NCBI GenBank assembly: GCA_963708185.1
Contig: OY970195.1
Location: 448,001-512,000, forward strand
Source of the DNA: Candidatus Peregrinibacteria bacterium
GTDB lineage: Bacteria; Patescibacteriota; Gracilibacteria; UBA1369
DNA: 64,000 nucleotides
Direction of reading: 5' to 3'
Shown: in pieces, positions 369 to 55,615 of the stretch
Layout of the letters: each line of letters opens with the position of its first letter
Numbering within the stretch: position 1 is the first letter of the stretch
Position numbers and translations under genes: made by a program
Notes under the pieces: model-generated
Databases searched by the model: none
What the model was told of the DNA's origin: nothing
Seen by the model: only the letters and a program-made list of their open reading frames with translations

Positions 369-3300
369 GGAGCCTGGACCAGGGGATGGTCGATCTTCGG
401 AGGTTCGATGTCGGTGTCGTGGATCTGGTCGCCCATGATATCTTTGATTTCCGGTGTTATTTCAACGGAAGCCACAGGCTGCATGATGAGTGCATAACCC
501 ATCGCTCCCAATGCGCCTCCCATGGCGAGCTTATTTACCCAGTGCCCGCTTTTTGAAATGTCACGCAAGGCCTCCAGATCCTCAATTTCGTTTCCGGCTT
601 TTTTGAGTGCCTGGCCCATCTCCATACTTTTTCCGGTTTCACTTGCTTCTTGCATGATTGCTTTGGCTGCCTTAAGTCTCATAAAAGTGCCCGCCATCGT
701 CGATGCATCGCATAGCCCGGAGCCAACTCCGAACGCTGCTCTCAATGTACGGTCGGTTTTGTCGAGTTTTCTTCCTGTGACCATCTCTTCGCCGGTAAAG
801 GCGGAATAAAAGTTGGAATATGTGGAAATGAAGGGCACCGTGTCGACGACGGACTGGCCAAGAGCATTGGAAAGCGCTTTACTGAACTCTTCACTTGCGT
901 TCCGGTCTTTAAAGTTTATAGCTGTTCCCAAAGCGATAAAACCACCGTAAAGTAACAACTTTCCCCTTGTAATGTTGGTGACGCTTTTCAGAATTCCTTC
1001 TTTTTCGCTCTGTTTATTCAATACTTTGTAGAACAGTTGCTGCATCTGATTTTTTTCCTGTTTGGCTATTTGTTCGATTTCTGGTGTTGCGGCGCCCTTG
1101 CCTTTCATCGCTTTTCTGAGCTTCCATTCTGTCGTAAATTTTTGGGCAAGGCTTTTGTATGTCGTAAAGTCTCCGAGATCGATTCTGATTTTTTCTTTCA
1201 TGAGATCGTTGTATTCTCTTGCTATTCCCTTGATGTCTTTCCCCTCCTTTGCCAGTTTTTCCATTTCAGCCATTTTGTCGGCCATTTGTAGATTTATCTG
1301 CTTTCTGTGGGCGTCAATGGTGTTCTGAAGGGTATCCATCTGGTCAAGATACGTTTTGGTCAATACGCCCTTTTCTCCTTCCGGACCGAATTTGTTTGTG
1401 AAGACAGCTTTGCGTTCAGCCATCTCATAGACAAGATAGTTTCCCTGAAGTTCCACACGTTCTTTTATAAATGCCCGCATGGTCGATTGGTTTTCCTTGA
1501 TGATCTCTTCGGCTTTTGTAATCTCCGGACCGGTGGAAATTCTCTTGGATTTCAGCTCTGCGATTTTTGCTTCCTGTTCGGCGATGGTTTTTCGATAACC
1601 ATGAATTTGCTGGTCTTTTTCGAGAAGCGCCACTTTGGCTTTGTTATGTTCGATCTCTCTCGTAATCTCTTCAGTAGACTTTATTTTTGGTTGTTTTTCA
1701 GCAATTTCCAGGCTTTTCTTGGCGCGCGTAAGTTCCTCTTCGTTATTTTTGATATCCTGATCGACTTCGGAAGGTGTGGCGTTGGTTTTGAATTCCCGTC
1801 CGATCAGTCCGCTCTCGGGAGAAATGCCTTTTGCTTTATTGATGAGTTCAGTCGCTGTTTTTATCGGCGCTTTGAGGTACTTGGAGACAATGTATTTGCC
1901 GTACTCTTTTTTCCATTCGGGTAACAATAACCAACCAATGGCTTTGGGAGCGTGCGTCGCGGACAAAAGTTCCAATTCGGTCCAGCCCCGACGTTTCATG
2001 ATTTGATCTCTCAGGTCGTTGTATTCGTCGCCAAGCGCTACGTTTGTCTTAAATACCCTATCCGCTTTTTCGGCAATGCTTTCAGTACTTTCTTTATTTG
2101 CAATGCTGTTGTTCAGATCTTTCAGTGCATTCTTCCATTCCCGGTAAAGTTCGGTGATTTTTTTGGTATCAATGTTCAGTTTTTTCGCTTCGCTGATAAT
2201 ACTGAGGACACTTTTTTCGTTCATTAATTTTTGCAGGTCCAGCTTGAGCTCCTTGCCCATTTCCTGTTGTTCCGGAGGAAGTTTACTGATGGCGTCGTCA
2301 ATCGACGCTACTTCAGGAGCTGGAGGTTCGGTGCTTACCGCTTCTCCGCTGAGGTTTTTCAGAACATCGTCGACGGTGGTGGTTGGGTTGACGAAATGAC
2401 TGATTTCTTCCTGATGTGCTTCAAAATATTTGCGGATTATCTCTTCCTGCTCCGCTGTTGAAGCGCTTCCCACGATAAGATTTAAGCCAGGAATCTGGCC
2501 GAGTACGCCGGCAATTGCTGATTTTCCTTCAGCAATAGTTGACATGAAATCGCTGTATTTGATGTTGCCGATACCCTTCAGGGTTTCTGGATCAACGGTT
2601 CCCCCCATCTCTTGACTGATTTTTTCCGCCATGTGCCGGTGAATTTCAAAATTTTCGTCCGGTCCGGCGAAAAGAACCTTGAACGCTTCGACGAACTCTC
2701 CATGAGAAAGATGAATGAGAAACTGGCTCAAACGGTTGCCGGTGATGTTGATGCCAAGCTTGTCCTTCAGCCATTTACTGACATCCTCATTACCGATCAA
2801 TCTTCCCAGGACAAAAATGCCGGCGCTGATGCCAAGACCCCATTTGAGTCTTTTTCCCCATTTGTCTCCGAGGATTTTGTCGATGAACCCTTCTTTTTTT
2901 TCTCCGTTTCCCTGCTCTTCATCTTCATCGGACGAAGTGAACCATTTGAAGATTTTATAGACACCGTACGCGCCTGCGGCCGCGATTCCGGCCGTGAGGA
3001 TAGGATGCTCTTTGGCAAAACCGGTTATTTTTTCCCAGAAGGTCGTTGGTTCTTTTTCCACTGTGGCTCCGGGGTATTTCCCGGGCTGTTGAGTCGGTGC
3101 GCTTAACGCTTCTTTGGTTTTATGGGCGCTTTCGTAAATTTCATGACCGCGTTCTACCAGTCTGCTCCAACGTTCTTTCAATACGGCGTATATTTTGGAG
3201 TCGGGTTTCGATGCGATTTCCTGGAGTTTCTTGAGTGAAATTTTTTCCGCCGGGTTCAATTTTTCCAGCGTAGCTCTTCCAATATTTTTCAAGCTTTCGA

Positions 3301-5434: not shown

Positions 5435-5447
5435 CGGCAGTGAAGTA

Positions 5448-5490: not shown

Positions 5491-5542
5491 GAATATTGGC
5501 TTTGTGCTATAATAAAAAGATTGTTTAATCATTTTACAGGCC

Positions 5543-7180: not shown

Positions 7181-7197
7181 TTCACTTCGAGCATAGG

Positions 7198-7240: not shown

Positions 7241-7298
7241 GAGTTGGTGGTTATTCAATGAAGTGAAGAAAAGTGGAGATAAGAAAGCTCGGCGGGGA

Positions 7299-8050
7299 TC
7301 AGTACTGGAGCAGGAATTCCGCTCCGTTCGGGCAGGAAGACGAGAGGTTGATGTTGGGGTTGGAACCGCAAGAGATTGCGGTGTACCCAACGCTGAAGAG
7401 TTCTCCCTCCATCTGCGAGTGATCGGGAGCGGGCCCGGACTGAACGTCGGGGCGCACTTTTTCGAACACGAGACGGGGTAGGAACCGAGCGAGCTTGCCT
7501 GGGATGCGTTGTTGTTGGGAGGGTCACCGACCCATACCATCACGACGCTTCCCGCGATGGGGTGGGTGTAGAACGGTTGGGTACCGTCCTGACACGTCGA
7601 GTCGTCGGGCGACGACTCCATGTTGTAAGTCGTCCCCAACTTGTTGAGGATGACCTTGTAGCACGAGTTCGTGCACTTGAAGGTGACCGCGTTGGGCTGC
7701 GGCGGGTCGTTGCAGAGAGGGGGAGCTCCACCGGAACCACCCGTACCGCCCATACCGCCAGAGCCGCCCATGCCGCCACCGCCGGTGGAGCTGGTTGCTC
7801 CGCCCATGCCGCCAGAACCGCCCTGGCCGCCTGAAGAGCTCGTCGAGCCCCCCATGCCGCCGGAGCCGCCCTGACTGGAACTGCTGGTGGTCTTGCCACC
7901 TCCAGTATCAGAGGTGGACATTCCTCCGGAACCACCTCCGCCTTGGTTGCAGATGTCCGGACAGGTGCCGTAGGAATCCAGGACGCATGCCTGGAGGACG
8001 AAGATCCCCATGCAGGGGAGCGACGTCATCAGTAAACTTTTCAGATGCAT
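7299..8050 (-). CDS. Gly-rich lipoprotein with 8-Cys C-terminal domain (copy 1), one-base deletion at ~7434-7436
   Basis: SD GGGAGG, start MHLKSLL, lipobox LQAC, GGSGGMGG linker. After restoring one G it ends ...SCGSNPNINLSSSCPNGAEFLLQY*, matching copy 2. Confidence 0.8.
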
Positions 8051-8094
8051 ATGACCTCCCGGGAGAAGAAAGTGCCTCCCTTGGAAATTTCGTA

Positions 8095-8216
8095 ACTTCA
8101 TTGATGTCAAACACCAGTCTTTTTGTTTGTAAACCGTCAGAAACTCCTTTAGGTGTTTGCGGTTCACAAAAGCAAAAAGAGCGTTTAATTATGGTGTAAA
8201 AGTGATAAAAAGTCAA
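8095..8216 (-). promoter_or_regulatory. Promoter (TTGACT-N17-CATAAT) and structured 5' leader of cassette 1
   Basis: -35 at 8211-8216, -10 at 8188-8193; long hairpin 8118-8180; segment 8095-8116 complementary to 3'UTR 7245-7264. Confidence 0.75.
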
Positions 8217-44335: not shown

Positions 44336-46705
44336 ATGAAATACATCGAAAGAGTTTTCAATATTGCCGATCATGAAGCCCCCAGGACCTTCTATGCATG
44401 GTCGCTCCTCTTTTTGCACAGAATGGGCTTAATTATCGGGACAACCACGCTGACGGCTATGTTCGTGACCCAGTTCGGCATTAACCTGCTTCCGTTGATG
44501 ATCCTGTTCCAAGCTTCTCTGACGATAGCGGGAATGTTTGCCTTTTCATTCTTAAATGAACACTTCATTTCGAAACAGCTCATTCCGGTTTGTGCTTTCG
44601 TTACAGGTCTTCTGCTTTTTGTCTCCACGTTTTTTGTTGATCAGCCTTATGTGTTCTTTGCTCTGCTTTTGGGTGTTACCGGTATATTTCTGCCCCAACT
44701 TACGATTTTTTTGGCAAACTATATCGAAGATTTTTTCACGCCGCTTGAATGCGAACGTACTTTTCCTGTCATTGAATCCGCCCAGACCATTGGAGGCATT
44801 TTCGCCGGCTTGCTCATCACGACTTTGGGACAATACATCGGAAGTTACAAGTTTTTCTATCTTTGGATTCTTTTTCTCTTTCTGGTGGTTTCCGTCATAT
44901 TTTTTCTCGAACCTTTTTCGAGCGAACATCAGTATTTCTTCAAACAACAGGAGCGGATCAAGAAAGATTTCCGTTCGCGCGTAAAAAAAATCAAACAGAA
45001 TATCCGTGAAATACGGCTGGTTCCCTTTCTGCAGGGTATGCTCATCATCTTTCTGTTGCATTGGGTGGTGGCGAACGTGCTTGAGTTCCAGTATACGAAA
45101 CTCATTGATGAATCCGTCGGGGCTACGGCGTCAGTATTTTTACACGAAGAAAGCCTGGCTCATGGGCTGGGTTCTTTTCAGATCCTTTTCCACGGTTCGG
45201 CGCTTATTGTTCAGCTTCTAGTCGCCAGCAGGATTCTGAGAAAACTGGGTACCGTGGGAAGTTTTCTCTTGCACAGCCTGGTAACCTTCTTCAGCTCAGT
45301 TTCTTTACTCCTCGGGTTCGGATACTTCAGCGTCATTCTTGCTAAAAATAATTTTGAACTCAGCGGGATCGTCCATAAGAATGCCTACGAAGCTTCGTAC
45401 TACGCGCTTCACCATGGTACCCAGCGACATGTAAGAGAATTTTTCGAGGCTTTTGTTTATCCAGCCGGGACTATTTTTGGAACACTCGTCATTTTCGGAG
45501 TCCAGTTTTTCTTTCTTCCGGAACATACGTACCTTGCCATGGAGGTCATTCTGATCGCCTTGACCATTGGAATGATCATTTTTGCCTTACGGCTACAGCG
45601 TTCTTATACACAACTTTCCAAGGACAATCTTTTGAAATCTGAACATAAAACCGCCAAGTTTCATGCCATAGAAATTTTGTCGCAGAAGGGCCATCAAAAT
45701 CATCTTCCGGCCTTGATCCAGGCTTTAAAAAACCCGCGTGAATCCGTAGACGTAAAAGTGAAAATTCTGGAAATCCTGCATAAATTATCCGATCCAAAAG
45801 CGATCCCTGTGATTATCGAATTTCTCCATTCCAAAGATGAAGATCTCGTTTATGCCTCGGTTATCGCACTCGGAGGATTTACGAAACTCGGAGACAACAT
45901 TTTTGAACAGGGTTTTTCGAGGTATCGAGCCATCCATGAACTTCGTGAGCTTTTTACCCGAACCTCGAGTGAAAAAATCAGGGAATCCATCATACGAACC
46001 CTTGCGACGCTGCGTTACGAAAAAATAGTCCCATTTTTGCTTCAGGAAATGCATGGGACTTCCAGTAAATTCCACATCGCATGCATCCAGGTGTGTTCGA
46101 TGTTTCATGATCCGGCGTTGGCGGATTATCTTCTTCCTTCGTTACGGGCACATTCCCCTTTCGTCCGAGCTCAGACGGTTCTCGCCCTATGGCAATTTCA
46201 CGGCTATCACCACAAGCTTCAGTCGGTCATGAATGAGCTTTTCCATTCAACAAAAAGGGAGAATTTTTTGGCCTATTGTTCGGTTATAGGTGATTTGAAC
46301 CTTAAAGTAGATCCTCAAAAACTTATTGCTCGGTATAATACTGCGGATCCGGAATTGAAAATGACCCTTGGATTTGCACTTTTTAAACTCGGTCACCGCG
46401 AAGTTGTGGAGGATCTTGTTCATTTACTTTTCAGCAGAAATTCATTAGTCTTGGATAAGGCGAAAGAGCTTTTCAGGACGTTGAAGCAGGAACAAAAGCG
46501 ATTCATTCAAAATATCGTCCAGCGTGAAATTTCACAACGCCTACAGCCGATTTTTACGGCAGGTGACGCTTCCAATCTTTCAGAAGAAGCGCATCAGATG
46601 CTGGAACGCTGCGCGGACGCTTACAGGGCTTTGGATCTCCGCCTCGAAGCTGAAGCCATTCATTCGACCTTCGAAACTTCCGCAACTCCTCTGCACGCTT
46701 TCTAA
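44336..46705 (+). CDS. MFS/NTT-like membrane domain fused to HEAT repeats, paralog 2
   Basis: ~12 TM with FTP.EC.RTFP.I...TIGGIFAG motif, then HEAT repeats. Confidence 0.72.
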   Translation: MKYIERVFNIADHEAPRTFYAWSLLFLHRMGLIIGTTTLTAMFVTQFGINLLPLMILFQASLTIAGMFAFSFLNEHFISKQLIPVCAFVTGLLLFVSTFFVDQPYVFFALLLGVTGIFLPQLTIFLANYIEDFFTPLECERTFPVIESAQTIGGIFAGLLITTLGQYIGSYKFFYLWILFLFLVVSVIFFLEPFSSEHQYFFKQQERIKKDFRSRVKKIKQNIREIRLVPFLQGMLIIFLLHWVVANVLEFQYTKLIDESVGATASVFLHEESLAHGLGSFQILFHGSALIVQLLVASRILRKLGTVGSFLLHSLVTFFSSVSLLLGFGYFSVILAKNNFELSGIVHKNAYEASYYALHHGTQRHVREFFEAFVYPAGTIFGTLVIFGVQFFFLPEHTYLAMEVILIALTIGMIIFALRLQRSYTQLSKDNLLKSEHKTAKFHAIEILSQKGHQNHLPALIQALKNPRESVDVKVKILEILHKLSDPKAIPVIIEFLHSKDEDLVYASVIALGGFTKLGDNIFEQGFSRYRAIHELRELFTRTSSEKIRESIIRTLATLRYEKIVPFLLQEMHGTSSKFHIACIQVCSMFHDPALADYLLPSLRAHSPFVRAQTVLALWQFHGYHHKLQSVMNELFHSTKRENFLAYCSVIGDLNLKVDPQKLIARYNTADPELKMTLGFALFKLGHREVVEDLVHLLFSRNSLVLDKAKELFRTLKQEQKRFIQNIVQREISQRLQPIFTAGDASNLSEEAHQMLERCADAYRALDLRLEAEAIHSTFETSATPLHAF

Positions 46706-46717
46706 ATATTTTCTATC

Positions 46718-47086
46718 ATGAACGATAACACTCCAATTCTCACACTCAATACCTTACCTCCGGATAAGCAAAAATCTTACCAGGTGTTTGAACTGAACGG
46801 TGACATGGACAAACAGGGACTTACGCTTGTCCGACAGAAGCTGGAAGAAACTGCACAAAATTTTCCTTATCAATACTTCATTTTTGATTTTTCGAACCTG
46901 AATTTCATCAACAGTGAAAGCATCGGCTTTTTGATGACTTTGCATTCTCACCTTGTTAAAATGAAAAAGAAACTCGTGGTCACTTCCGCTAAATCGCATG
47001 TCAAAGACGTTCTTTCAGTCATAGGGATTCTTAACGTCATCGATTACCATGATTCACTTGAAGCTTTTCTTAAGACCATTGCGTAA
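46718..47086 (+). CDS. STAS anti-sigma-factor antagonist, copy C
   Basis: GDMD, DFSNLNFINSESIG. Confidence 0.88.
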   Translation: MNDNTPILTLNTLPPDKQKSYQVFELNGDMDKQGLTLVRQKLEETAQNFPYQYFIFDFSNLNFINSESIGFLMTLHSHLVKMKKKLVVTSAKSHVKDVLSVIGILNVIDYHDSLEAFLKTIA

Positions 47087-47094
47087 ATATAACC

Positions 47095-48315
47095 ATGAAG
47101 TTATTTAAAAAAAGTTTGTTAGGCAGGGTATTCGTAAATTTCTTTCTCTTTGCGATTCTTATCACCGTGGCGGTTTTCTATTTTTATTCCTCAGACCAGA
47201 AAACGATAAGTCTTGGTGTGTTTATCGGGTCTTTGATCGTTTTTCTGCTTTATTTTCTCCTGGTTTATCTCTATGAAATCGTCCGTCCTTTCGAGTTCAT
47301 TCTGAAACAGATCAAGAATCTTTTGACCGGGAGGAAATATAAAAGGGTTTATACCAACAGGATCGACGAAATAGGAACCATCGCCCACTTTTTCAACGAA
47401 GTCACGAGGAATCTCGAAAAAATCTCGGGGCAGCTTAAAGAAGGCCGGCGCATGCTTGGTGAACTTGAAGTCGCCGCACAGATCCAGAAAGACATTTTGC
47501 CGGTTTCAGCACCGAACGTTCCGAATCTCGACATAATCGCCAAAACCAGACCGGCCGTTGAACTCGGCGGAGATAATTTCGATTTTATTACGGTGAAAGA
47601 CAATACCTACATCTACATCGGAGACGTTACGGGTCACGGCGTTCCGGCTGCCCTGGTCATGACGATCGTTCATACGCTTATTCATACCTTTGTTGAGATT
47701 TATGACAATGCCTTTGACGTCGTATACCAGACGAACCGGCGTTTAAAATCCCAAATCAAATCGACGATGTTCATGACGATGATGATGCTTCGGTGGAATC
47801 GTGAAACCCAAAAAATGACCTATGTCGGTGCCGGGCATGAACATCTTATCGTTTATCGCGCATCGAAAGGTCAGTGTGACGACAGGATGTCTGGTGGTAT
47901 AGCGCTCGGTATGATCGCCGACAACAGTAAGATCATCAAAGAGCTCGATCTGCCAATGGAAAAAGATGACGTGGTGGTTCTTTATTCAGACGGTATCGTC
48001 GAAGCCCGCAATATGGCTGGGGAAATGTATGGCCTTGATCGTCTGAAGAAAGCTATTGAAATCTATGCTCCTCAGTATGGTTCTGAAGGCATCGTATACC
48101 ACATTGCGCGCGATTTTTCGCGCTTTGTGCAGCAGCATGTCCAGGAAGACGATATCACGCTCATGGCCATCCGTTATATGGGCCCGAACGTCGAAACGGT
48201 AGCAGTTCCTCAACAGCCGAATCTCACTGCCTGGACGGAAGAGGAAAAAGAGGTTGAAAAAAAAGATCAAAAACCGCAAAAGACCAAGAAGCCAAAAGAT
48301 AACGTGTCGATTTAA
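47095..48315 (+). CDS. SpoIIE/RsbU-like PP2C phosphatase with 2 TM and HAMP
   Basis: DEIG..A..FN HAMP; GGDNFD, GDVTGHG, YSDG, DDITL. Confidence 0.92.
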   Translation: MKLFKKSLLGRVFVNFFLFAILITVAVFYFYSSDQKTISLGVFIGSLIVFLLYFLLVYLYEIVRPFEFILKQIKNLLTGRKYKRVYTNRIDEIGTIAHFFNEVTRNLEKISGQLKEGRRMLGELEVAAQIQKDILPVSAPNVPNLDIIAKTRPAVELGGDNFDFITVKDNTYIYIGDVTGHGVPAALVMTIVHTLIHTFVEIYDNAFDVVYQTNRRLKSQIKSTMFMTMMMLRWNRETQKMTYVGAGHEHLIVYRASKGQCDDRMSGGIALGMIADNSKIIKELDLPMEKDDVVVLYSDGIVEARNMAGEMYGLDRLKKAIEIYAPQYGSEGIVYHIARDFSRFVQQHVQEDDITLMAIRYMGPNVETVAVPQQPNLTAWTEEEKEVEKKDQKPQKTKKPKDNVSI

Positions 48316-48323: not shown

Positions 48324-49343
48324 ATGAAAGCCAAAGATTTTTCATTCAATCTTCCGGAAGAGCTTATCGCCCAGAATCCGACTTCCCCGCGAGATGCCTG
48401 CAGACTGATGGTTTTGGACAGGTCCTTTCATTCAATGTCCAACCGTCATTTTTACGATCTTCCCAAGTTCTTGAAACGCGGTGATGTTTTGGTCATGAAC
48501 AATTCACGGGTTCTTCCGGCCAGAATGTTTTTTGAGGGTCACGGGAAGAAAGCTGAACTTTTCCTGTTGAGAAAATTGAATGATGCCGTGTGGCTTGCCA
48601 TCGGGAAACCGGGGAAGATTCTGCAGCCTGGAAATTTTTTTTCCATCGCTGTGGATTTTTCTTTTGAAGTTTTGGAAATTTTACCTGACGGACAAAGGAA
48701 GATCCGTTTTTTTCAACCAGCCGATCAAATTGAAAGCCTCATTGAAAAACATGGGCATACTCCCCTTCCTCCATACATCAAACGTTCTGAATCTTCGCCT
48801 GACGACTATCAAACCGTCTATGCTCGGGAATCAGGCAGCGTGGCCGCACCGACGGCAGGACTGCATTTTACCGACGAACTTTTAAAGACCATCAAAGATA
48901 TGGGCGTTGAAATCGTTTTCGTCACGCTCCATGTGGGACTCGGTACTTTTCAACCGTTAAAAACCGACGAAGTGGAGAGCCATATGATGCACAGTGAAAT
49001 CTTCGAACTTTCATCGGAATCGTCAGATGTTCTGCAAAAAGCACGTAATGAACAAAGGAGAATTATCGCTGTCGGAACCACGTCGGTCCGTGTACTTGAA
49101 AGTTCTTTTGATCAGGTGAAAGGGTTTACGCCCCAAACGGGTGATACTTCGATCTATATCTACCCCGGATATACCTGGAAATGCGTTGACGGCCTTTTGA
49201 CGAATTTTCACCTCCCCCAAAGTACGTTGCTCCTGCTGACCTGCTCGTTCGGGGGTACGGGTTTTGTCTTGAACGCCTACCAAAAGGCGGTAGAAGAACG
49301 ATACCGTTTTTACAGCTTCGGAGACGCCATGCTTATTTTGTAA
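48324..49343 (+). CDS. queA: SAM:tRNA ribosyltransferase-isomerase
   Basis: YQTVYA, AAPTAGLHF, TNFHLP, YSFGDAM. Confidence 0.97.
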   Translation: MKAKDFSFNLPEELIAQNPTSPRDACRLMVLDRSFHSMSNRHFYDLPKFLKRGDVLVMNNSRVLPARMFFEGHGKKAELFLLRKLNDAVWLAIGKPGKILQPGNFFSIAVDFSFEVLEILPDGQRKIRFFQPADQIESLIEKHGHTPLPPYIKRSESSPDDYQTVYARESGSVAAPTAGLHFTDELLKTIKDMGVEIVFVTLHVGLGTFQPLKTDEVESHMMHSEIFELSSESSDVLQKARNEQRRIIAVGTTSVRVLESSFDQVKGFTPQTGDTSIYIYPGYTWKCVDGLLTNFHLPQSTLLLLTCSFGGTGFVLNAYQKAVEERYRFYSFGDAMLIL

Positions 49344-51708
49344 GCCACTTTGGCAACACTTTTGCCTGCTGGATCCCGGGAATCTTTCTGATGCGCTCGA
49401 GATCGTGGAGGTTGAATTTTCCCATGTAGAGGTCTTCCACTTTTCCGCCTTCTGCGACGAATCGTTCGACGTCCCTTTCTCCGGAAAAATAGATGTAATC
49501 TTTCGTAAAAGCTCCAGCCAAAGAAGTGTCGTTCAATCCGCGCTTCAGTTTCAAACAGATTTTGAAGGCCTTCGTCTGGGAAAGTCCGTAGTTCATTAAT
49601 TTCAGGAAAAGATCTGCAAAAGACAACTGGAAGGCCAGCTCCGTTGCCTTAACCAGTGAAGCCTTATAAACACGGTCTGCTTCTTTTTCAAGCCCCTGCG
49701 TTTTGACGTTATAGAGAGCCAGCCCTTCCTGGGTGGACAAATATTCCGAAAACCCGCGGTTAAAGAGTTTGTAGGGCTGATGTTTTCCGTTCTCCGCCGT
49801 CAGGATATGCGTCTCTATTTCATGAACGACAAGACTTTTGACTCTCGATGATGAAAATTTAGCGGATTTTTTGACGAACAGCTGGTTGTTTTTTCCGGCG
49901 ACGCAGTTGGTGACGAGATTGTCTTTCAATACGACTTTCCACTGATCTAGATGGTAATCCTGGAACACCTGCATGAAAATTTTCCTGGCCGCTGCGGCGT
50001 CGACATCCTCCTTTTCTTCTTCGAACGTTTTTTTTATCTTCAGGGTTTCCTCGGCCAAGGAAAGATGCTCTTTGTTAGGTTTTCCGAAAAGCTCCACTGA
50101 ATTCAGCGTAAACGACTGCTGCCCGCGTGACAGGTGAAGGTCGATCTTTTTCTGGATCTCTTTGCTTTTTTTGAAGAAAAGAATTCCCAGGGAAGTGTCG
50201 TCGAAAATAATGCTGGACAGTTGTTTTTTGAGATCGTCGGGATCGTAGCGAAGTTCAGGATACGTGAACTGGGGGTTGTATGAGAAATCCTGAAAAAACT
50301 TTTTGGTTTCCTCTTCCAGATTTATGGGTCTCAGGTAGTACAAGAGTTTTATCTTATTGTCGATGCTGATGAGCTGGTCATCGATGGCGTGGTAATCGAT
50401 ACTTTTTGTAATTTTCTGGACTGTTTTTTTTGTTTTGCGTTTTTTTGACGGATCGATAAGAAAGTTCTCGCCAAGATCACGCTGCCCGATGATAATCTTG
50501 TAATTTTCGTCGGTAATTTTTTCCACGTCGAAGATACTCTGGATTCTTTTTCCGGCGATGGACAGCTTGAGCTTGAGCGTGGATTTTTCGTCATCGTATA
50601 CCTCGTGGTCTTCAAGAAGGCCGTTCTCGTTGGCGAAATCCTCGTCGACGACACTCCTCTCCCTGCTGGTATCGAGAAACGCCATTGCTTTTTTTGTCTG
50701 ATCTTTCATGATAACTTCCACGTTCTCTTCCACGCTGACGATTTTTTTCTCAATCGGTTCAGATGAATTTTTTTCAGCGGTTTTCCCGAACATTTCTTTG
50801 GCGATGCGGATGCCTTTACTTACCGTCCTGATCTTGAGTCCCTTGATACGTTCAAGTCGTTTGCGCAGAGGCGCAAGGTTGGCTATTTGTACACTGAGTC
50901 CTGCTCTGGCATTAATCTCGAGGAGAATGGGCCCGTGTGCCTTATCAACCGCGATGTCGGCGGCAAGATATCCCAGATTGGTGGCGACTTGCGCCTGGCA
51001 GGCGATATTGAGCATTTTGTCCCAGTCAGGAATTTTCACTCCACGTACTTTGCCGACTTTCGGTATTTCAGTAATGATGCGGTTGTGGTAAATGGCGTTG
51101 GTCGTCACTCCCCTGGCGATATCGATGCCGACGCCTATGGCTCCCTGGTGAAGATTGGCTTTCCCCCGGGACTCTTCGGTCGGCAGACGGAGCATGGCCA
51201 TGACCGGAATAAGGTTGTGGACAATGATGCGGATGTCGGGCAGGCCTTTGTATGAGAGAGCTCCGAGGGTTTCGTCAGGAATGATGAGCTGTTCGAAAAA
51301 AGCTTTATCGTTAAGGTTGGTCACGGAAAAGCGTCCGTCGAGAATGTCCTGAATGTGTTTCTGGATCCTTTTCAAAGTATATTTTTCCTTGTCGATGGTG
51401 ATCCAGTACTTGTCCTGCTTTTCAATGATCGGAATAATGCCCTCACCGCCGTATCCAAGATTCGGCTTGATAACAAAGCTTTCCGGCAATTGTTCAAAAT
51501 CAAACTTCCAGAGGTTTTCGATGCTGTCGATGACGCCGTAAAGTTTAGGAACCGGAATCCCGCGTGCCGAAAGAAAAGCTTTTGTTTTCAGTTTGTCGTC
51601 GGCGATAAGAACCGATTTATCGGCATTATACGGTTTGATATACAAAAGGTTGCGCGCGTTGATGCCGAGCACACCTGGGTTTTTGAAATATTTGAGGAAA
51701 AATGACAT
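49333..51708 (-). CDS. Fusion of alpha-L-glutamate ligase-like ATP-grasp, retropepsin-like domain and DUF1704 (QEGLA/MATCAP-like) metallocarboxypeptidase
   Basis: GINARN, DDKLKTK, AMLRLPT..S.GKANLHQGA, LEINAR; FLDTSR...IIGQRDL..FLIDP; HEIETH, QEGLA, KDYIY. Confidence 0.85.
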   Translation of the reverse strand: MSFFLKYFKNPGVLGINARNLLYIKPYNADKSVLIADDKLKTKAFLSARGIPVPKLYGVIDSIENLWKFDFEQLPESFVIKPNLGYGGEGIIPIIEKQDKYWITIDKEKYTLKRIQKHIQDILDGRFSVTNLNDKAFFEQLIIPDETLGALSYKGLPDIRIIVHNLIPVMAMLRLPTEESRGKANLHQGAIGVGIDIARGVTTNAIYHNRIITEIPKVGKVRGVKIPDWDKMLNIACQAQVATNLGYLAADIAVDKAHGPILLEINARAGLSVQIANLAPLRKRLERIKGLKIRTVSKGIRIAKEMFGKTAEKNSSEPIEKKIVSVEENVEVIMKDQTKKAMAFLDTSRERSVVDEDFANENGLLEDHEVYDDEKSTLKLKLSIAGKRIQSIFDVEKITDENYKIIIGQRDLGENFLIDPSKKRKTKKTVQKITKSIDYHAIDDQLISIDNKIKLLYYLRPINLEEETKKFFQDFSYNPQFTYPELRYDPDDLKKQLSSIIFDDTSLGILFFKKSKEIQKKIDLHLSRGQQSFTLNSVELFGKPNKEHLSLAEETLKIKKTFEEEKEDVDAAAARKIFMQVFQDYHLDQWKVVLKDNLVTNCVAGKNNQLFVKKSAKFSSSRVKSLVVHEIETHILTAENGKHQPYKLFNRGFSEYLSTQEGLALYNVKTQGLEKEADRVYKASLVKATELAFQLSFADLFLKLMNYGLSQTKAFKICLKLKRGLNDTSLAGAFTKDYIYFSGERDVERFVAEGGKVEDLYMGKFNLHDLERIRKIPGIQQAKVLPKWLTK

Positions 51709-53279
51709 TATTCTTCTTCGTTATGGTGGAAGACTTCACGGAAACGAATGAATTCAACCAGGCGAAGGCCGCTCCATCTTCCAAGGGCGATATTGATGAT
51801 AAGAAACAAGAAGATGGCTTCCGGATAATGCCTCATAAAGTTTTTCAGCGTATCCCACTGAAAGTTGAAAAAACCCAAGTCGATCTGGCCGCCAACCGCG
51901 ATGTACGCGACGACGGCGATGATGACCGTTTGCAGGGTAAGCCAAAGGGTTTTCCAGATGCCGGATTCGGACTGGATACTGGTGAATTTTTCAGTGATGC
52001 TGCCAAGGATAAGCATAGGAAAGATGGCCAAAGAGAAGAACTGACTGTCGAAAAGCTTGAAAATGGTTCCCAAAATCAACAATGCGAAGAGCGACAGGGT
52101 GATCATGATCATAACCACGGCAAGCTTTGGCATAAAGAGAAGATGCGCTTTTTTCAAAATGAATCTCGTCGTCATGCCAACGATCAAAGCCGTTACCAGG
52201 GTGAGCAGTCCGAACTTCAATCCGAGAATAAGAAAAGTCAGGCACATGATCAACGGCGTATACATACCGAAGGTGTTCATGCCGACGATCTGGCGCATGA
52301 TGACGATGATCGTGGCGATAATCGGCAACATCAGGATGAGCACGATGGTGTTGTCGGGGATTCCGCTTTCAACAAGAAAGTTCACGAAATACGTCATGAA
52401 ATTCCAGATACTTAGTCTCCTTGAAGCCTCATCGAAAAATTTAAATTCGTATCCCCCCTGTTGCAGTTCTTTGATCACCGTGTTTTCCTCGCTCGAAACG
52501 ATGACATAGAGCCCCGCTTCCTTTGCAATAATGATCTGTTTGGGGTTAAAGCCCTGGAACGGGGGAGTAAAAACGACTTTATCGATGTCGTTGTCGATGA
52601 TGTAAAGGTTTTTATCGTTAAGTATCTTGGCCTTGGTGTCCTGATTTTCCTTGATGAAGCGGTTGAGGGTATTTATGCCCACGTTATCGTTCGTCCAGAG
52701 AATGATTTCATCGCTTCGATTGAGAGCTTCAGGGTTTTCGTCCATGGATTTCGTGAGGGCCTCTTCGGAAATAAATTCAGAAGCACTGTCGAAGCTTTCC
52801 AGGACATTAAGCTCCACACCCTCGTTCTGGGCAACATTTTTAAGATTTTCGATCTGGTCTTTTTTATCGGTCTGATCCGTCAGCATCAAAATGGACTTCT
52901 TGTAGATGAAAATGTCCGTTTCGGTCTTAAAATCCTGATTTTCACTCGAAATATCCAAGTTGACGTGGAAGGTTCCGGTATCTTTATAGGTGTGCGTCAA
53001 ATTCACCCCTTCCTTTTTTGTACCGTCACCAAAATCCCAGTGGTACACCGCTTTGGCGGGATCACCGGGTAAAATGCTCTTTGAGGCGTCAAAAACGACG
53101 TTTTTTTCGACTTCCGCTGACGAATTGACGTCGATTTCGGCCTGGTAAGCTTGATTTTTATCAGAAATGTTTTGGGATAACCCTAGGACAGGGGTCACTG
53201 CCCAAAGAAGCAATGCCAATATTGCGGTATATTTTATGCCTTTTTTGTGCTGTTTCTCGTGCATTTTACGATTTTTCAT
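51708..53279 (-). CDS. PKD-domain protein with C-terminal 7TM domain of the inactive-transglutaminase-associated type
   Basis: Signal peptide, FDAS/WDFGDG PKD, LPIIA...RQIVG..TFG.Y.P, ALGRWSGLRL.EF.RF; TAATG overlap with the ligase. Confidence 0.85.
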   Translation of the reverse strand: MKNRKMHEKQHKKGIKYTAILALLLWAVTPVLGLSQNISDKNQAYQAEIDVNSSAEVEKNVVFDASKSILPGDPAKAVYHWDFGDGTKKEGVNLTHTYKDTGTFHVNLDISSENQDFKTETDIFIYKKSILMLTDQTDKKDQIENLKNVAQNEGVELNVLESFDSASEFISEEALTKSMDENPEALNRSDEIILWTNDNVGINTLNRFIKENQDTKAKILNDKNLYIIDNDIDKVVFTPPFQGFNPKQIIIAKEAGLYVIVSSEENTVIKELQQGGYEFKFFDEASRRLSIWNFMTYFVNFLVESGIPDNTIVLILMLPIIATIIVIMRQIVGMNTFGMYTPLIMCLTFLILGLKFGLLTLVTALIVGMTTRFILKKAHLLFMPKLAVVMIMITLSLFALLILGTIFKLFDSQFFSLAIFPMLILGSITEKFTSIQSESGIWKTLWLTLQTVIIAVVAYIAVGGQIDLGFFNFQWDTLKNFMRHYPEAIFLFLIINIALGRWSGLRLVEFIRFREVFHHNEEE

Positions 53280-53410
53280 AGCTCTTCGCTGTGACTCTAC
53301 GTATATTAGCTTTTTTGAGAATAGTAGCAAGGGGTAAACATTTTGCTGCTGGGCTTTTCAAAAGTGCCTTTTTTTGGTATAATTATTAGATAAAAATAAA
53401 CATCAAACCT

Positions 53411-55615
53411 ATGAATACAACACAAAAAAACATTTTGGCGGTTATCTCTCTCTTGGCGCTTTCATTTTCACAACCGGTGTTCGCAGCACCACAAGCAGTT
53501 GAGGGCTATGGTTCTGATACAATCGCCGGATATGAAACTTTGTTAAAATCCAGTACGGTTTCGGCATGGCAGGACGTTACTTTCCATGTTGCCAAACCGG
53601 ACGGAACCGTTGTAAGTCTCAACGCGAACAGCGGAGCGAACGGCGTGGCGAAAGCAACTTTGTCTGATTATCACACGACGACAGCCGGCCAATATAAGGT
53701 CGGGGCGTCTTTGGGAAGCAACAATAACGTTTCGAGCGGTTCAGTCCATAATTTTACCATTCTCCCGGATAAAGTTTCTGCTGACCAATCGACTGTTGCC
53801 ATTGATAAAACCGTCATACAGCCCGGTTCTCAGGATTTTGCCAAACTTACCGTCCAGCTGACCGACAAGTATCATAATCCCGTGTCGAATCATCTTGTTC
53901 AGGTTTTTTCAACAAGGACTCAAGATAAAATATCGACGGTCTCCACGAACGGGATGACCGATGCCAAAGGAAATATTGCTTTCAACCTCAGCTCTTCGGA
54001 CAAAGGGGTTTCAGAATATTCTGTTCTCGATTCCACCTCGGGGGTGATGCTTTCCCACAAGATCGACGTGGCTTATGTGGCCGGATCTGATCTTATGGCA
54101 GATGCTGGAGGAGAGTTCCCTTTCTTCATTGATACCGCAAACGCAGCGGCCGGGACTCTTCATCATTTTGAAATTTCAGGTCTTCCCGACGGTATTCAAC
54201 CGAATCAAAGCGTCAATTTTACCGTTACGGCCCAGGATGACACCAATCAGACGGTTCAGAACTATACCGGTACCGTTCATTTTTCAGCACAGGGTTCAAA
54301 CAGCGCCAATGTCACGCTCCCAGAAGATTATACTTTTAAAGCTGAAGACCTTGGGACCCATCAGTTCAGCCTTGGGCTCAGTTTCAGCTCAGCCGGTGAT
54401 TACACCATTGTGGCAACGGATTTATCCAATACCCTTATTCAGGGGACCAAAGACGTCACGATCGGCGGAGGCGGATCAACTCAACAGTCATCGAACGCAA
54501 ATATCACCGTTGATTCCCCGGTAGCAGGAACTTACAGTCAGAAGACTCAGACCATCAGCGGAAAGGCCCAGTCGGGAGATACGGTGAAGATTTACGACAA
54601 CCAGCAGGAGATCGGAAGCGTCCAGGCAAGCGGTGACGGAACGTATTCCTACCAGTCCTCTCCCCTGAGTGACGGTCAGCACAGCATTTATGCCGTCATG
54701 TATGATAATACTCAGACCGCACAGGGGACATCGAATACCGTAGAGTTCAGTATTGATACGACTCCGCCGACCGCGGATGAAATTGTTCTCGATCCGAGTT
54801 CGGGGATCACGCCCGGGACTCCGATCAACGTCTCTGTCACCAGTGAGCAGAACCTTTCACAGGCGGCGATTGTTTTCAATGGCGATATCGTAACGCTTAA
54901 TCCAAGTCTCGATGATCCGAGTACCTACATTGCCACCATTCAGGCTCCTGATACTCCGGGCGTCTATCCGATTGATGTCTTGATCGTCGACCAGCTTGGT
55001 AACGAAGGCTCTTATAAAGGGAAAGCCCAGGTTACCGTTGAAGGTGCCGCTCCGACCGAACAGCAAAGCCAACAGACCCAGGTGGCCACGCAGGAGCAGA
55101 CGCAGCAGCCAACCCAGGAGGTCGCTCCTCCCCCGGCCAACACGGCTCCTTCCAAAGTTTCCGGCCTCTTGACCTATGCCGGTGATAAGAAGATCACTCT
55201 GGTTTGGGACGCCGCTTCGGACAGTGAAACCTATGTCCAGCATTATCGTATTTATTACGGCACCGATCCTCGCAATCTTGATCTTTACGTGGACACGAAA
55301 GATGCGAGCACGACCTGGTACGTCCCGAATCTTGAAAACGGCAAGGAGTATTATTTTGCTGTCAGCGCGTTTGATACCGAAGGCATGGAAAGCTCCGGTT
55401 TGAGTGAAGTTGTGAGCGGCATCCCGTTTACAACTGAAGTTGCTTCACTCGGTCAGGTTTCAGGGCCTTTGCAGCCAGCGACTCACCCGGCTGCTGGAGA
55501 ACTCGTGACTCCGCCGACAACGACCAAGAGCGGGCCTGAACTGCTTTGGGTCCTTGCAGGAAGCGGTTTGTTCGGAGGAGCTCTCAAAAAGCTGCGCCGA
55601 AAGAAGAAAAAATAA
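53411..55615 (+). CDS. Surface protein with Ig-like (Big) domains, FN3 and C-terminal sorting signal
   Basis: Signal peptide AFA-like, D.Y.NPV invasin-type repeat, IDTTPP, FN3 (LVW...YRIYYG...LENGKEYYFAVSA), TKSGPE+TM+KKLRRKKKK. Confidence 0.85.
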   Translation: MNTTQKNILAVISLLALSFSQPVFAAPQAVEGYGSDTIAGYETLLKSSTVSAWQDVTFHVAKPDGTVVSLNANSGANGVAKATLSDYHTTTAGQYKVGASLGSNNNVSSGSVHNFTILPDKVSADQSTVAIDKTVIQPGSQDFAKLTVQLTDKYHNPVSNHLVQVFSTRTQDKISTVSTNGMTDAKGNIAFNLSSSDKGVSEYSVLDSTSGVMLSHKIDVAYVAGSDLMADAGGEFPFFIDTANAAAGTLHHFEISGLPDGIQPNQSVNFTVTAQDDTNQTVQNYTGTVHFSAQGSNSANVTLPEDYTFKAEDLGTHQFSLGLSFSSAGDYTIVATDLSNTLIQGTKDVTIGGGGSTQQSSNANITVDSPVAGTYSQKTQTISGKAQSGDTVKIYDNQQEIGSVQASGDGTYSYQSSPLSDGQHSIYAVMYDNTQTAQGTSNTVEFSIDTTPPTADEIVLDPSSGITPGTPINVSVTSEQNLSQAAIVFNGDIVTLNPSLDDPSTYIATIQAPDTPGVYPIDVLIVDQLGNEGSYKGKAQVTVEGAAPTEQQSQQTQVATQEQTQQPTQEVAPPPANTAPSKVSGLLTYAGDKKITLVWDAASDSETYVQHYRIYYGTDPRNLDLYVDTKDASTTWYVPNLENGKEYYFAVSAFDTEGMESSGLSEVVSGIPFTTEVASLGQVSGPLQPATHPAAGELVTPPTTTKSGPELLWVLAGSGLFGGALKKLRRKKKK

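What the first reader, a model, noticed from the sequence alone, without database searches (positions are those of the whole stretch)
49333..53279. Candidate single-polypeptide writer/eraser: ATP-grasp ligase fused to a MATCAP-like carboxypeptidase, coupled to a 7TM protein
Seen: a 791-aa protein with an intact ATP-grasp ligase (KPNLGYGGEG, LEINAR), a retropepsin-like middle domain, and a DUF1704 domain with HExxxH (HEIETH) plus QEGLA. It is translationally coupled (TAATG) to a PKD-7TM gene. Established: RimK-related ligase, 7TM and pepsin-like genes form known operons of separate genes. DUF1704 is the catalytic family of the tubulin-tail carboxypeptidase MATCAP, whose counterpart TTL is an ATP-grasp ligase. 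Inference: a bacterial cycle adding and removing C-terminal residues (probably Glu), analogous to tubulin tail editing, or synthesising and trimming a surface peptide polymer through the 7TM partner.
Basis: partly seen in the sequence, partly recalled or inferred. Interest (0 to 1): 0.8.

Follow-up and report, generated by a model that had tools for sequence, protein, structure and literature searches.

The report
Fused bacterial peptide-tail ligase and MATCAP-like trimmer
A small uncultured bacterium carries a conserved gene pair: a membrane protein, and one enzyme that joins a peptide ligase to a bacterial relative of the human tubulin-trimming enzyme MATCAP, so adding and removing tail residues may be paired in bacteria too.

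Summary
ORF 49333..51708(-) encodes a 791-aa protein with three domains. They are an RloC/RimK-type ATP-grasp ligase, a RimB/RloA-type retropepsin fold (VIA-align Z 12.4-12.7), and a MATCAP/DUF1704 Zn-carboxypeptidase (HEIETH, QEGLA). It overlaps (TAATG) an upstream PKD-7TM (RloB-like) gene.

The fusion is not an artefact:
- All 121 listed homologues are full-length fusions.
- 63 of the best 150 representatives at 50% identity are at least 740 aa.
- The 7TM gene lies directly upstream in 74 of 75 loci that have upstream DNA.

Two findings are new here.
- The retropepsin DTG motif is kept in 76 of 77 ATP-grasp-retropepsin proteins without a fused MATCAP, but in only 6 of 19 triple fusions. This suggests MATCAP took over as the peptidase.
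- The 7TM partner ends in -EE in 73 of 74 loci. In a phylum sample it does so in 0 of 57 genomes without MATCAP.

These associations rest on only about three independent lineages and are not statistically demonstrable.

Best reading: a membrane-associated ligase/carboxypeptidase pair acts on an acidic C-terminal tail, possibly the 7TM protein's own tail. This is a new variant of the rlo/rim systems. Function is untested.

The parts
51708..53279 (-). Gene for the RloB-like membrane protein. It is 523 aa from the ATG at 53279; the open frame reaches a TTG at 53330.
   Evidence: A homologue lies directly upstream of the fusion in 74 of 80 loci.
53175..53231 (-). N-terminal hydrophobic segment (signal peptide or anchor), preceded by a K/R-rich N-terminus
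   Evidence: hydropathy script; topology is inferred
52935..53144 (-). PKD domain (extracytoplasmic, inferred)
   Evidence: Pfam PKD_4 at 9.2e-14 and PKD at 1.4e-10
52356..52913 (-). About 186-aa extracytoplasmic region with no assigned family. It sits where RloB carries an inactive transglutaminase.
   Evidence: no Pfam hit at E<=10; the Atlas gave nothing
51732..52343 (-). 7TM_transglut transmembrane domain
   Evidence: PF14402 at 1.3e-25; NF052267 RloB at 2.3e-18, far below its cut-off
51711..51746 (-). Conserved C-terminal tail RFREVFHHNEEE ending in -EE(E), predicted cytoplasmic
   Evidence: -EE end in 73 of 74 partner proteins. It is kept in 16 of 17 loci with a gap of 50 nt or more; its codons vary synonymously, GAA 109 and GAG 35.
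51706..51710 (-). TAATG stop/start overlap of the two genes
49333..51708 (-). Gene for the 791-aa three-domain enzyme (ATP-grasp, retropepsin-like, MATCAP-like)
50842..51654 (-). ATP-grasp ligase domain (aa 19-289), holding KPNLGYGGEG (51439..51468) and LEINAR (50905..50922)
   Evidence: PF14397 at 2.6e-64. Foldseek matches ArgX 3vpb and RimK 5zct at about E 4e-7. Invariant residues.
50452..50745 (-). RimB/RloA-type retropepsin fold (aa 322-419). The triplet at the catalytic position is DTS (50665..50673).
   Evidence: D[TS]G is present in only 13 of 67 fusions.
49381..50298 (-). MATCAP/DUF1704 metallocarboxypeptidase domain (aa 471-776), holding HEIETH (49807..49824) and QEGLA (49717..49731)
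   Evidence: PF08014 at 9.5e-53. PDB 7z5g by sequence and by fold. Motifs present in 67 of 67.

Best explanation
This is a conserved two-gene operon of Peregrinibacteria-type (Patescibacteria) bacteria. It is a compacted, modified form of the rlo/rim type of system.

Gene 1 encodes an RloB-like membrane protein. It has an N-terminal anchor, an outside PKD domain plus an unassigned domain, seven TM helices, and a cytoplasmic tail that ends in -EE.

Gene 2 encodes a cytoplasmic enzyme with three domains:
(i) an RloC/RimK-type ATP-grasp ligase, the writer, which adds amino acids (most likely Glu) to a C-terminal carboxylate;
(ii) a RimB/RloA-type retropepsin domain whose catalytic DTG has decayed, so it now probably only binds acidic peptide or dimerises;
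(iii) an intact MATCAP-type Zn carboxypeptidase, the eraser, which removes C-terminal residues and has taken over the job of the retropepsin.

The enzyme works at the membrane partner. The partner's invariant -EE C-terminus is the most likely acceptor or docking site.

Shown: the gene order, the domains, the motifs and their conservation. Inferred: the activities, the substrate, the added residue and the topology.
For: Domains and motifs.

Catalytic residues. The ligase and MATCAP residues are invariant in 67 of 67 fusions, whereas D346 is D in only 40 of 67 and D[TS]G is present in only 13 of 67.

Gene pair. The 7TM gene lies directly upstream on the same strand in 74 of 80 loci. Five of the six misses have less than 150 nt of upstream DNA. 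In the phylum sample an ATP-grasp ORF follows the 7TM gene in 122 of 128 loci, and 103 of those ORFs carry the retropepsin domain.

Eraser replacement. DTG is kept in 49 of 49 ATP-grasp-retropepsin proteins of genomes without MATCAP, in 27 of 28 where MATCAP is a separate gene, and in 6 of 19 triple fusions.

Tail. The partner ends in -EE in 73 of 74 loci. This is independent of the distance to the next start codon and shows synonymous codon change. In the phylum sample -EE occurs in 17 of 24 genomes with a fused MATCAP, 2 of 47 with an unfused MATCAP, and 0 of 57 without MATCAP. Legionella RloB ends ...AKARS.

Biochemistry of relatives, from passages read. RimK adds Glu to the RpsF C-terminus and makes poly-alpha-Glu; RimB removes Glu and binds RimK; RloA has a positively charged channel and cleaves RimB substrates; loss of rloB or rloC suppresses the rloA1-3 triple-mutant defects (PMC11957051). 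MATCAP/TMCP enzymes use HExxxH plus an EEG ligand, remove C-terminal Tyr and Glu, and shorten poly-Glu (PMC10499314).

Independent ATP-grasp/DUF1704 pairing. A QEGLA gene lies next to a 'glutathione synthase' gene in Sinorhizobium pMl3. The pair RS17025/RS17020 in Photobacterium is induced 27-fold and 38-fold at low salinity (PMC10308900 passage).

RpsF. The genome's own RpsF ends ...NPDINF, not -EE, so a RimK-style S6 target is unlikely.
Against: No biochemical data exist for RloC or for any bacterial DUF1704 protein in the papers I could search.

Triple fusions in another lineage (G051, G076, G100, G122, G142, plus G024 and G379) have partners without -EE. So the -EE tail cannot be the universal substrate.

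The links among the -EE tail, DTG loss and MATCAP fusion rest on few events. Fourteen of the 15 fused -EE rows fall in one clade. Only 3 independent pairs lie on supported branches, with sign-test p about 0.5.

In Pseudomonas the RloA proteases are periplasmic. That points to an exported product rather than a cytoplasmic tail.

The protein scores below the NCBIfam equivalog cut-offs for TIGR02291, TIGR02421 and RloB.

The C-in topology comes only from a hydropathy script and the family name.

One locus (L111) has the fusion with no 7TM gene within 6 kb. In G273 and G314 the two genes are not adjacent.
Confidence: 0.55

Rival explanations
1. Free peptide polymer or osmolyte buffer. The ligase polymerises free glutamate (as RimK makes poly-alpha-Glu) or another peptide. 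The MATCAP domain depolymerises or trims it. The 7TM protein senses envelope or osmotic state, or exports the polymer. The -EE tail is at most a primer or anchor.
For: RimK makes poly-alpha-Glu, and RimB is proposed to modulate Glu/poly-Glu levels. The rlo mutants have hypo-osmotic phenotypes. The RloA proteases are secreted, and their loss is suppressed by loss of rloB or rloC, as if an exported product accumulates (PMC11957051 passages). RimK, a QEGLA protein and the adjacent 'GshB' are induced 52-, 27- and 38-fold at low salinity in Photobacterium. Fused enzymes whose partners lack -EE exist.
Against: In Patescibacteria both peptidase domains are fused to an ATP-dependent, hence cytoplasmic, enzyme. 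The genome has no separate PF05618 protease. The strict amino-acid-level conservation of -EE across partners only 31-45% identical is not explained by this model. No transporter-like feature of the 7TM family was tested.
Confidence: 0.25
2. Sequential maturation rather than antagonism. The MATCAP domain first trims a precursor to expose the right C-terminal residue. The ligase then extends or cross-links it, as in a biosynthetic pathway for a modified peptide.
For: Partners in the other fused lineage end in ...KHDKSA or ...KHGKSS, which could need trimming. ATP-grasp and peptidase pairs occur in peptide-natural-product clusters (search listing only).
Against: No precursor-peptide gene is conserved in the neighbourhood; the conserved neighbours are housekeeping synteny. 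MATCAP replacing a retropepsin whose relatives reverse RimK fits an eraser better.
Confidence: 0.08
3. The fusion joins functionally unrelated or regulatory domains. For example, the MATCAP domain may act on unrelated cytoplasmic proteins, or may be a non-catalytic sensor.
For: No direct functional data exist. The AF2 inter-domain arrangement is uncertain (pTM 0.50).
Against: The metal-binding and catalytic motifs are invariant in 67 of 67. Split forms keep the MATCAP gene directly after the ATP-grasp-retropepsin gene (L011 and L028; nine same-strand cases). ATP-grasp/DUF1704 neighbourhoods recur in Proteobacteria. DTG decay tracks the fusion.
Confidence: 0.05
4. Assembly or annotation artefact, or a sporadic fusion.
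For: None found.
Against: The window lies in a single 1.437-Mb contig of a 99%-complete genome. Hundreds of independent assemblies carry the same open frame.
Confidence: 0.01

Closest known systems
rloABC operon of Pseudomonas (RloA secreted retropepsin, RloB 7TM with inactive transglutaminase, RloC ATP-grasp); PMC11957051
   Same: A 7TM_transglut-family membrane gene is followed directly by a TIGR02291/PF14397-type ATP-grasp gene. A RimB/RloA-type retropepsin fold belongs to the system.
   Different: Here the retropepsin is fused to the ligase, has no signal peptide, and has lost DTG (it reads DTS). The membrane protein carries PKD plus an unassigned domain instead of the inactive transglutaminase, and ends in -EE where Legionella RloB ends ...AKARS. 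A MATCAP domain is added. The scores are far below the RloB cut-off (66 vs 900 bits) and below the TIGR02291 cut-off (286 vs 314 bits).
RimK/RimB (RimABK) modification of ribosomal protein S6
   Same: An ATP-grasp Glu ligase is physically associated with a retropepsin that reverses it on a C-terminal Glu tail (passages). RimK is a top structural match of the ligase domain.
   Different: There is no 7TM partner in Rim. The TIGR00768 score is 47 against a cut-off of 143. The genome's RpsF does not end in -EE. The likely eraser here is a metallopeptidase.
MATCAP/TMCP1-2 (KIAA0895L, KIAA0895) with TTL/TTLL in eukaryotes
   Same: Same Pfam family and fold. HExxxH plus the E of EEG/QEG. The aligned motifs are HEIETH/HEIGTH, QEGLA/EEGLA and KRG..DTS..G.F.KD. 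Those enzymes act on -EEY and -EE tails and on poly-Glu chains, opposite ATP-grasp ligases (the fold of TTL is recalled).
   Different: This one is bacterial and covalently fused to its presumed counter-enzyme. There is no tubulin. The candidate tail belongs to a membrane protein. Identity to MATCAP is about 23%.
[quoted passage not shown]
   Same: A DUF1704 peptidase is encoded beside an ATP-grasp ligase (Sinorhizobium L114; Photobacterium).
   Different: The genes are separate, the ATP-grasp belongs to a different clade (annotated glutathione synthase), and no 7TM gene is seen there. The TIGR02421 cut-off is not reached (198 vs 339 bits).
ATP-grasp-retropepsin two-domain proteins of other Patescibacteria (about 430-520 aa)
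   Same: Same 7TM-then-ligase operon and same first two domains (103 of 128 loci).
   Different: They lack MATCAP and keep DTGA (76 of 77). Their partners have basic, non-EE tails (0 of 57 end in -EE in genomes without MATCAP).

Membership tests
MATCAP / DUF1704 (Pfam PF08014) | Profile match above the gathering score | tested here: met
   179.9 bits against a cut-off of 27, aa 471-776
MATCAP / DUF1704 (Pfam PF08014) | HExxxH motif plus a third metal ligand Glu in the EEG-type motif | tested here: met
   HEIETH and QEGLA align to HEIGTH and EEGLA of 7z5g. H629, E630, H634 and E661 are present in 67 of 67. The motif definition comes from PMC10499314 passages.
MATCAP / DUF1704 (Pfam PF08014) | MATCAP fold | tested here: met
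   Foldseek 7z5g_A at E 5.7e-12, TM (target) 0.66
MATCAP / DUF1704 (Pfam PF08014) | Carboxypeptidase activity on C-terminal Tyr or Glu | not testable with these tools
   needs an enzyme assay
NCBIfam TIGR02421 (QEGLA motif protein, hypothetical equivalog) | Score above the curated cut-off | tested here: not met
   198.5 vs 338.65 bits: a relative, not an equivalog
RloC-type ligase (NCBIfam TIGR02291; Pfam ATPgrasp_ST PF14397) | Profile match above the cut-off | tested here: inconclusive
   PF14397 is met (217.5 vs 31.4 bits). TIGR02291 is just missed (285.9 vs 314.2 bits).
RloC-type ligase (NCBIfam TIGR02291; Pfam ATPgrasp_ST PF14397) | Conserved ATP-grasp nucleotide- and Mg-binding residues | tested here: met
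   K81, D251, E264 and N266 are present in 67 of 67. Their assignment as ligand residues is recalled.
RimK family (TIGR00768) | Score above the cut-off; S6 with a Glu-Glu C-terminus as target | tested here: not met
   47.2 vs 143.4 bits. The genome's RpsF ends ...NPDINF.
RimB/RloA retropepsins (Pfam PF05618 / DUF785) | Sequence profile match | tested here: not met
   No PF05618 row was listed at E<=10 in the domain-alone Pfam scan; only Asp_protease_2 appeared, at E 0.12.
RimB/RloA retropepsins (Pfam PF05618 / DUF785) | Retropepsin fold closest to DUF785/RloA | tested here: met
   2pma at Z 12.7 (rmsd 2.2, 100 aligned). 9g59 at Z 12.4 (rmsd 2.5, 101 aligned). 9g58 at E 5.4e-5.
RimB/RloA retropepsins (Pfam PF05618 / DUF785) | Catalytic D-T/S-G triplet | tested here: not met
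   DTS in this protein. D[TS]G in 13 of 67 fusions, against 76 of 77 in two-domain relatives.
RloB (NCBIfam NF052267; Pfam 7TM_transglut PF14402) | 7TM domain profile match | tested here: met
   PF14402 at 90.7 vs 25 bits
RloB (NCBIfam NF052267; Pfam 7TM_transglut PF14402) | Periplasmic inactive transglutaminase domain; full-length RloB score | tested here: not met
   NF052267 at 66 vs 900 bits, with only the 7TM part aligned. The outside region has no Pfam family.

The most novel reading that the evidence does not exclude
The genetically encoded -EE C-terminus of the 7TM protein is reversibly extended and trimmed by its own operon partner. That would be a prokaryotic 'tail code' on a membrane receptor or conduit, mechanistically parallel to tubulin tyrosination/glutamylation by TTL/TTLL and MATCAP. 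It would also make bacterial ATP-grasp/DUF1704 modules the likely evolutionary source of the eukaryotic MATCAP eraser.
Probability: 0.25. Interest if true: 0.85.

Novelty: new variant of a known kind. Interest (0 to 1): 0.62.

Why it matters
MATCAP/TMCP enzymes are known as erasers of the tubulin code. A bacterial family in which the same catalytic domain is covalently joined to a RimK/RloC-type ATP-grasp ligase suggests that the ligase/MATCAP pairing is not confined to eukaryotes.

The rlo system is genetically important in Pseudomonas for osmotic tolerance, antibiotic tolerance and biofilm, but it is biochemically unexplained. This compact form offers a simpler handle on it: one soluble polypeptide carries both the writer and the eraser.

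The comparative pattern (DTG decay after MATCAP fusion, a conserved -EE tail on the partner) yields a concrete candidate substrate or ligand that can be tested with peptides.

If the reading is wrong, the system is still a widespread, unexplained envelope-associated module of Patescibacteria.

Tried and rejected
Shine-Dalgarno artefact for the -EE tail. I considered whether the terminal Glu codons are conserved as a ribosome-binding site for the overlapping downstream gene. I rejected this. -EE is kept in 16 of 17 loci with a gap of 50 nt or more; the one exception, L107, is a frameshifted gene whose real end is ...HAEE. The codons are GAA 109 and GAG 35. The upstream regions of the distant starts that the script printed (12 of the 17 loci with a gap of 50 nt or more) show no purine-rich motif.

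Complex prediction. I submitted the fusion (aa 20-791) with the 7TM part (aa 305-523 of the 523-aa form). The verdict was 'no answer' with score 0.00 in both runs, and the controls were not folded. This is neither support nor evidence against.

Sequence searches for the middle domain. The PDB phmmer and profile searches gave only MATCAP and weak chance-level rows. Pfam on the domain alone gave nothing significant. Only the fold search resolved it.

Outside region of the 7TM protein (aa 140-325). No Pfam family and no usable Atlas hit.

PADLOC. No defence family for either protein.

Promoter and terminator scan of 49000-53700. The counts are at shuffle level and nothing usable lies on the minus strand.

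Sequencing runs. None was listed for 49300-53450, and no RNA holder was listed.

Co-evolution statistics. independent_pairs found only 3 independent pairs on supported branches, p about 0.5. The FastTree tree has long-branch warnings.

Literature.
- 'DUF1704' gave 1 irrelevant paper.
- 'QEGLA/TIGR02421/TIGR02291/7TM_transglut/ATPgrasp_ST/PF08014' gave only the Photobacterium table and malaria gene-ID noise.
- 'MATCAP' with 'bacterial/ATP-grasp' and with 'prokaryot/homolog/KIAA0895' gave no paper on bacterial fusions.
- Iyer et al. 2009 (PMC3268129), which may describe these neighbourhoods, is not held. What I say of it is recalled.
- PMC11957791 was seen only as a search listing.
- Supplementary files were not consulted. 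The supplements of PMC11957051 and PMC10499314 may hold phylogenetic distributions that bear on novelty.

The 561-aa gene inserted between the pair in L071 has no family.


Full report
WHAT IS THERE

On the minus strand, ORF 51708..53330 (first ATG at 53279) and ORF 49333..51708 form a pair. The stop of the first and the start of the second overlap as TAATG. Plus-strand housekeeping genes flank the pair. QueA converges on its 3' end. A Big/fn3 surface protein is transcribed divergently, followed by CysS, and a MurC-like Mur ligase gene lies beyond on the minus strand. So the pair is a two-gene unit. The window lies in a single 1.437-Mb contig of a 99%-complete genome. Its closest relatives, 77-79% identical, are records titled Candidatus Peregrinibacteria or Peribacteria.

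THE 791-AA PROTEIN

Pfam finds ATPgrasp_ST at aa 19-289 (2.6e-64) and MATCAP/DUF1704 at aa 471-776 (9.5e-53). NCBIfam finds the RloC-type TIGR02291 model (3.3e-85) and the QEGLA model TIGR02421 (1.9e-58), both under their equivalog cut-offs.

The MATCAP relation is direct. Human MATCAP 7z5g is hit at E 3.9e-14 with the whole protein, 7.5e-20 with a family profile and 2.6e-15 with the domain alone. The aligned motifs are HEIETH/HEIGTH, QEGLA/EEGLA and KRGLNDTSLAGAFTKDYIY/KRGQTDTSLPGCFSKDQVY.

The AF2 model built on 48 sequences has pLDDT 82.5 and pTM 0.50, so the inter-domain geometry is unsure. It matches MATCAP (Foldseek E 5.7e-12) and ArgX/RimK/LysX ligases at E 4e-7 to 7e-6.

The stretch between the two domains (aa 322-419) is all-beta. 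Modelled alone from 38 sequences (pLDDT 91.7), its best matches are the DUF785 protein Lpg0085 (Z 12.7) and P. aeruginosa RloA2 (Z 12.4). These stand above Ddi1 and the retroviral proteases at Z 8-10. Foldseek agrees.

THE PARTNER

The partner has a K/R-rich N-terminus, one hydrophobic segment and a PKD domain. Then come about 186 residues with no family and a 7TM_transglut domain at aa 330-533. The NCBIfam RloB model aligns only to the 7TM part (66 vs 900 bits). With a large outside domain followed by seven helices, the C-terminus should be cytoplasmic. This is inferred, not shown.

CENSUS

- All 121 rows listed by the search for homologous proteins (query included, 771-813 aa) carry both Pfam families. 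In all, 1344 proteins reached E<=1e-10 among the 8000 candidates scored.
- Against 1.84 billion 50%-identity representatives there are 2254 hits at E<=1e-10. Of the best 150, 63 are at least 740 aa.
- In species-representative genomes 485 stretches encode a relative. The best 80 are all fusions from Peregrinibacteria, Peribacteria, Gracilibacteria or Patescibacteria records.
- A partner homologue lies immediately upstream on the same strand in 74 of these 80 loci. Five of the misses have less than 150 nt of upstream DNA. One (L111) truly lacks it within 6 kb.
- Other recurrent neighbours are QueA in 48 loci, SpoIIE in 48, MFS-HEAT in 43 and the Big-domain protein in 38. These look like plain synteny.

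WIDER CONTEXT IN THE PHYLUM

In an even sample of 401 Patescibacteria genomes, PF14402 is found in 128 and PF08014 in 74. The two overlap in 70 genomes. I fetched all 127 partner loci and scanned them, plus the window, with HMMs built from my own alignments.

An ATP-grasp ORF follows the 7TM gene in 122 of 128 loci. Four of the six misses are cut by contig ends. In 103 loci that ORF also carries the retropepsin domain. So a two-domain ATP-grasp-retropepsin protein of about 430-520 aa is the common form in this phylum, and the triple fusion is a derived form found in 22 adjacent cases.

MATCAP also occurs in other arrangements:
- a separate gene just downstream on the same strand (9 loci, for example G013 and G021, where it directly follows);
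- about 5 kb away on the other strand (19 loci, mostly one family);
- elsewhere in the genome (21 genomes).

TWO PATTERNS NOT IN THE ORIGINAL FINDING

(1) The catalytic D-T-G of the retropepsin domain is kept in 49 of 49 proteins from genomes without MATCAP. It is kept in 27 of 28 where MATCAP is a separate gene, but in only 6 of 19 triple fusions. In the 67 fusions of the genome contigs set, D346 is D in 40 and N in 21, and D[TS]G occurs in 13. The GxRDL...F..D motif of the same domain stays conserved, as do all ligase and MATCAP catalytic residues. The simplest reading is that the metallocarboxypeptidase made the aspartic protease redundant. That means both act on the same kind of substrate, namely the ligase's product.

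(2) The partner's last residues are ...RFRE(V/I)(L/M/F)(R/K)(H/Y)x-EE(E) in 73 of 74 loci. The exception, L110, ends KTLD. This is selection on the protein. It holds in 16 of 17 loci where the next gene starts 50 nt or more away, and the Glu codons vary (GAA 109, GAG 35).

In the phylum sample -EE ends occur as follows:
- 15 of 22 partners next to a MATCAP fusion, plus G273 and G314, whose fusion lies elsewhere, giving 17 of 24;
- 2 of 47 with an unfused MATCAP (G083 and G207);
- 0 of 57 in genomes without MATCAP.

A Legionella RloB ends ...VLAKARS.

Counting three traits over the 95 loci that have a retropepsin hit (-EE end, DTG lost, MATCAP fused) gives 000 = 75, 111 = 11, 001 = 5, 011 = 2, 110 = 1 and 101 = 1.

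CAVEATS ON THESE PATTERNS

On an ATP-grasp-domain tree (FastTree, with long-branch warnings), 14 of the 15 fused -EE rows form one clade. G054 (EE, DTS) nests beside the fused, DTG-keeping, non-EE lineage. G083 (EE, NTG, separate MATCAP) lies elsewhere. That makes about three independent co-occurrences. independent_pairs finds only 3 usable pairs, with p about 0.5. The direction is consistent but the association is not demonstrated. The lineage with intact DTG and non-EE partners (G051, G076, G100, G122, G142) shows that the fused enzyme can work without an -EE tail.

HOW IT MOST LIKELY WORKS

The relevant knowledge of relatives comes from passages I read. RimK adds Glu to the C-terminus of S6 and makes poly-alpha-Glu. 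RimB binds RimK and removes those Glu residues. [quoted passage not shown] The defects of the rloA1-3 triple mutant are suppressed by deleting rloB or rloC (PMC11957051). MATCAP/TMCP enzymes remove C-terminal Tyr and Glu and shorten poly-Glu chains (PMC10499314).

I therefore read the 791-aa protein as a writer (ATP-grasp) and an eraser (MATCAP) of an acidic C-terminal extension. The decayed retropepsin domain would be retained as a binding or dimerisation module. The 7TM protein would be the site of action. Its -EE tail resembles the -EE ends that, in those papers, the relatives extend or expose (S6 for RimK/RimB; detyrosinated alpha-tubulin for MATCAP). It is thus the best candidate for the acceptor, or for the ligand of the dead protease domain. 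An active RimB-like protease would be expected to clip such a tail, which would explain why -EE appears where DTG is lost. The genome's own S6 ends ...NPDINF, so S6 is an unlikely target.

The main rival is synthesis and breakdown of a free or exported peptide polymer that acts as an osmotic buffer. This fits the periplasmic RloA proteases, the hypo-osmotic phenotypes, and the strong low-salinity induction of RimK, a QEGLA protein and its ATP-grasp neighbour in Photobacterium (PMC10308900 table). A similar QEGLA plus 'glutathione synthase' pair sits on a Sinorhizobium megaplasmid. So DUF1704 peptidases partner with ATP-grasp ligases of at least two clades.

COMPARISON AND NOVELTY

The system is a member of the MATCAP Pfam family and of the ATPgrasp_ST and 7TM_transglut families. 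It fails the equivalog cut-offs for RloB, RloC and QEGLA, and it lacks the retropepsin active site. So it works like an rlo/rim module but is not an orthologue of one.

Public annotation already labels these proteins 'tyrosine/phenylalanine carboxypeptidase domain-containing protein' or 'alpha-L-glutamate ligase-like protein/TIGR02421 family'. The architecture is therefore visible in databases. I found no paper that discusses it. Iyer et al. 2009 could not be read.

I rate it a new variant of a known kind. It has a testable and moderately surprising link to the eukaryotic tubulin-tail enzymes.

Noticed in passing
window 53411-55615 (+): A 734-aa protein with Big_1, Big_3_5, Big_6, Invasin_D3, fn3 and DUF4998 matches is transcribed divergently from the operon. 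A homologue is present in 38 of 80 related loci. This may be plain synteny or a surface partner.
   Followed up: partly
window 44336-48315 (+): An MFS-HEAT fusion protein (789 aa), a STAS protein and a SpoIIE-type phosphatase lie in a row. This looks like a partner-switching module next to a transporter. It is conserved in 43-48 of 80 loci.
   Followed up: no
L242 (own genome, C1:888372-891641), ORF 1174..1911 (-): Ribosomal protein S6 sits in a 245-aa open frame with a long Lys/Glu-rich C-terminal extension that ends ...NPDINF.
   Followed up: partly
L136, L143, L148 (G122, G076, G051): Genomes of the other triple-fusion lineage carry a second MATCAP-like gene (438-491 aa) on the opposite strand, 2.5-3.6 kb downstream of the operon.
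   Followed up: no
L114 (Sinorhizobium medicae pMl3) 587-8201: The genes run N-formylglutamate amidohydrolase, two group II intron maturase genes, a 627-aa QEGLA protein, then 'glutathione synthase'. The introns appear to have inserted into a Glu-related ATP-grasp/DUF1704 cluster.
   Followed up: no
L071 4265-5950: A 561-aa gene with no family is inserted between the 7TM gene and the fusion in one relative. It overlaps the 7TM stop by 4 nt.
   Followed up: partly
L107 (CP064978.1) 3953-5540: In a genome deposited as complete, the 7TM gene is split into two frames (a frameshift). The second piece still ends ...MKHAEE.
   Followed up: yes
L049 and P0031: Two fusion-bearing contigs are titled Nitrospirota, although their proteins are 54% identical to the query, like the Peregrinibacteria ones. 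This is probably a binning error.
   Followed up: no
L216-L239 (family f26 of the phylum sample): Here the 7TM protein is only about 225 aa with no outside domain, and the ATP-grasp protein is about 500 aa. In 12 of 19 of these genomes the N-terminal half of the retropepsin model, which holds the DTG position, was not matched (labels). A standalone MATCAP gene sits a constant 5.1-5.9 kb away on the other strand.
   Followed up: no
G147, G123, G137, G330 loci: In-frame TGA codons inside matches suggest lineages that read TGA as an amino acid. Their ORF lengths under table 11 are therefore underestimates.
   Followed up: no
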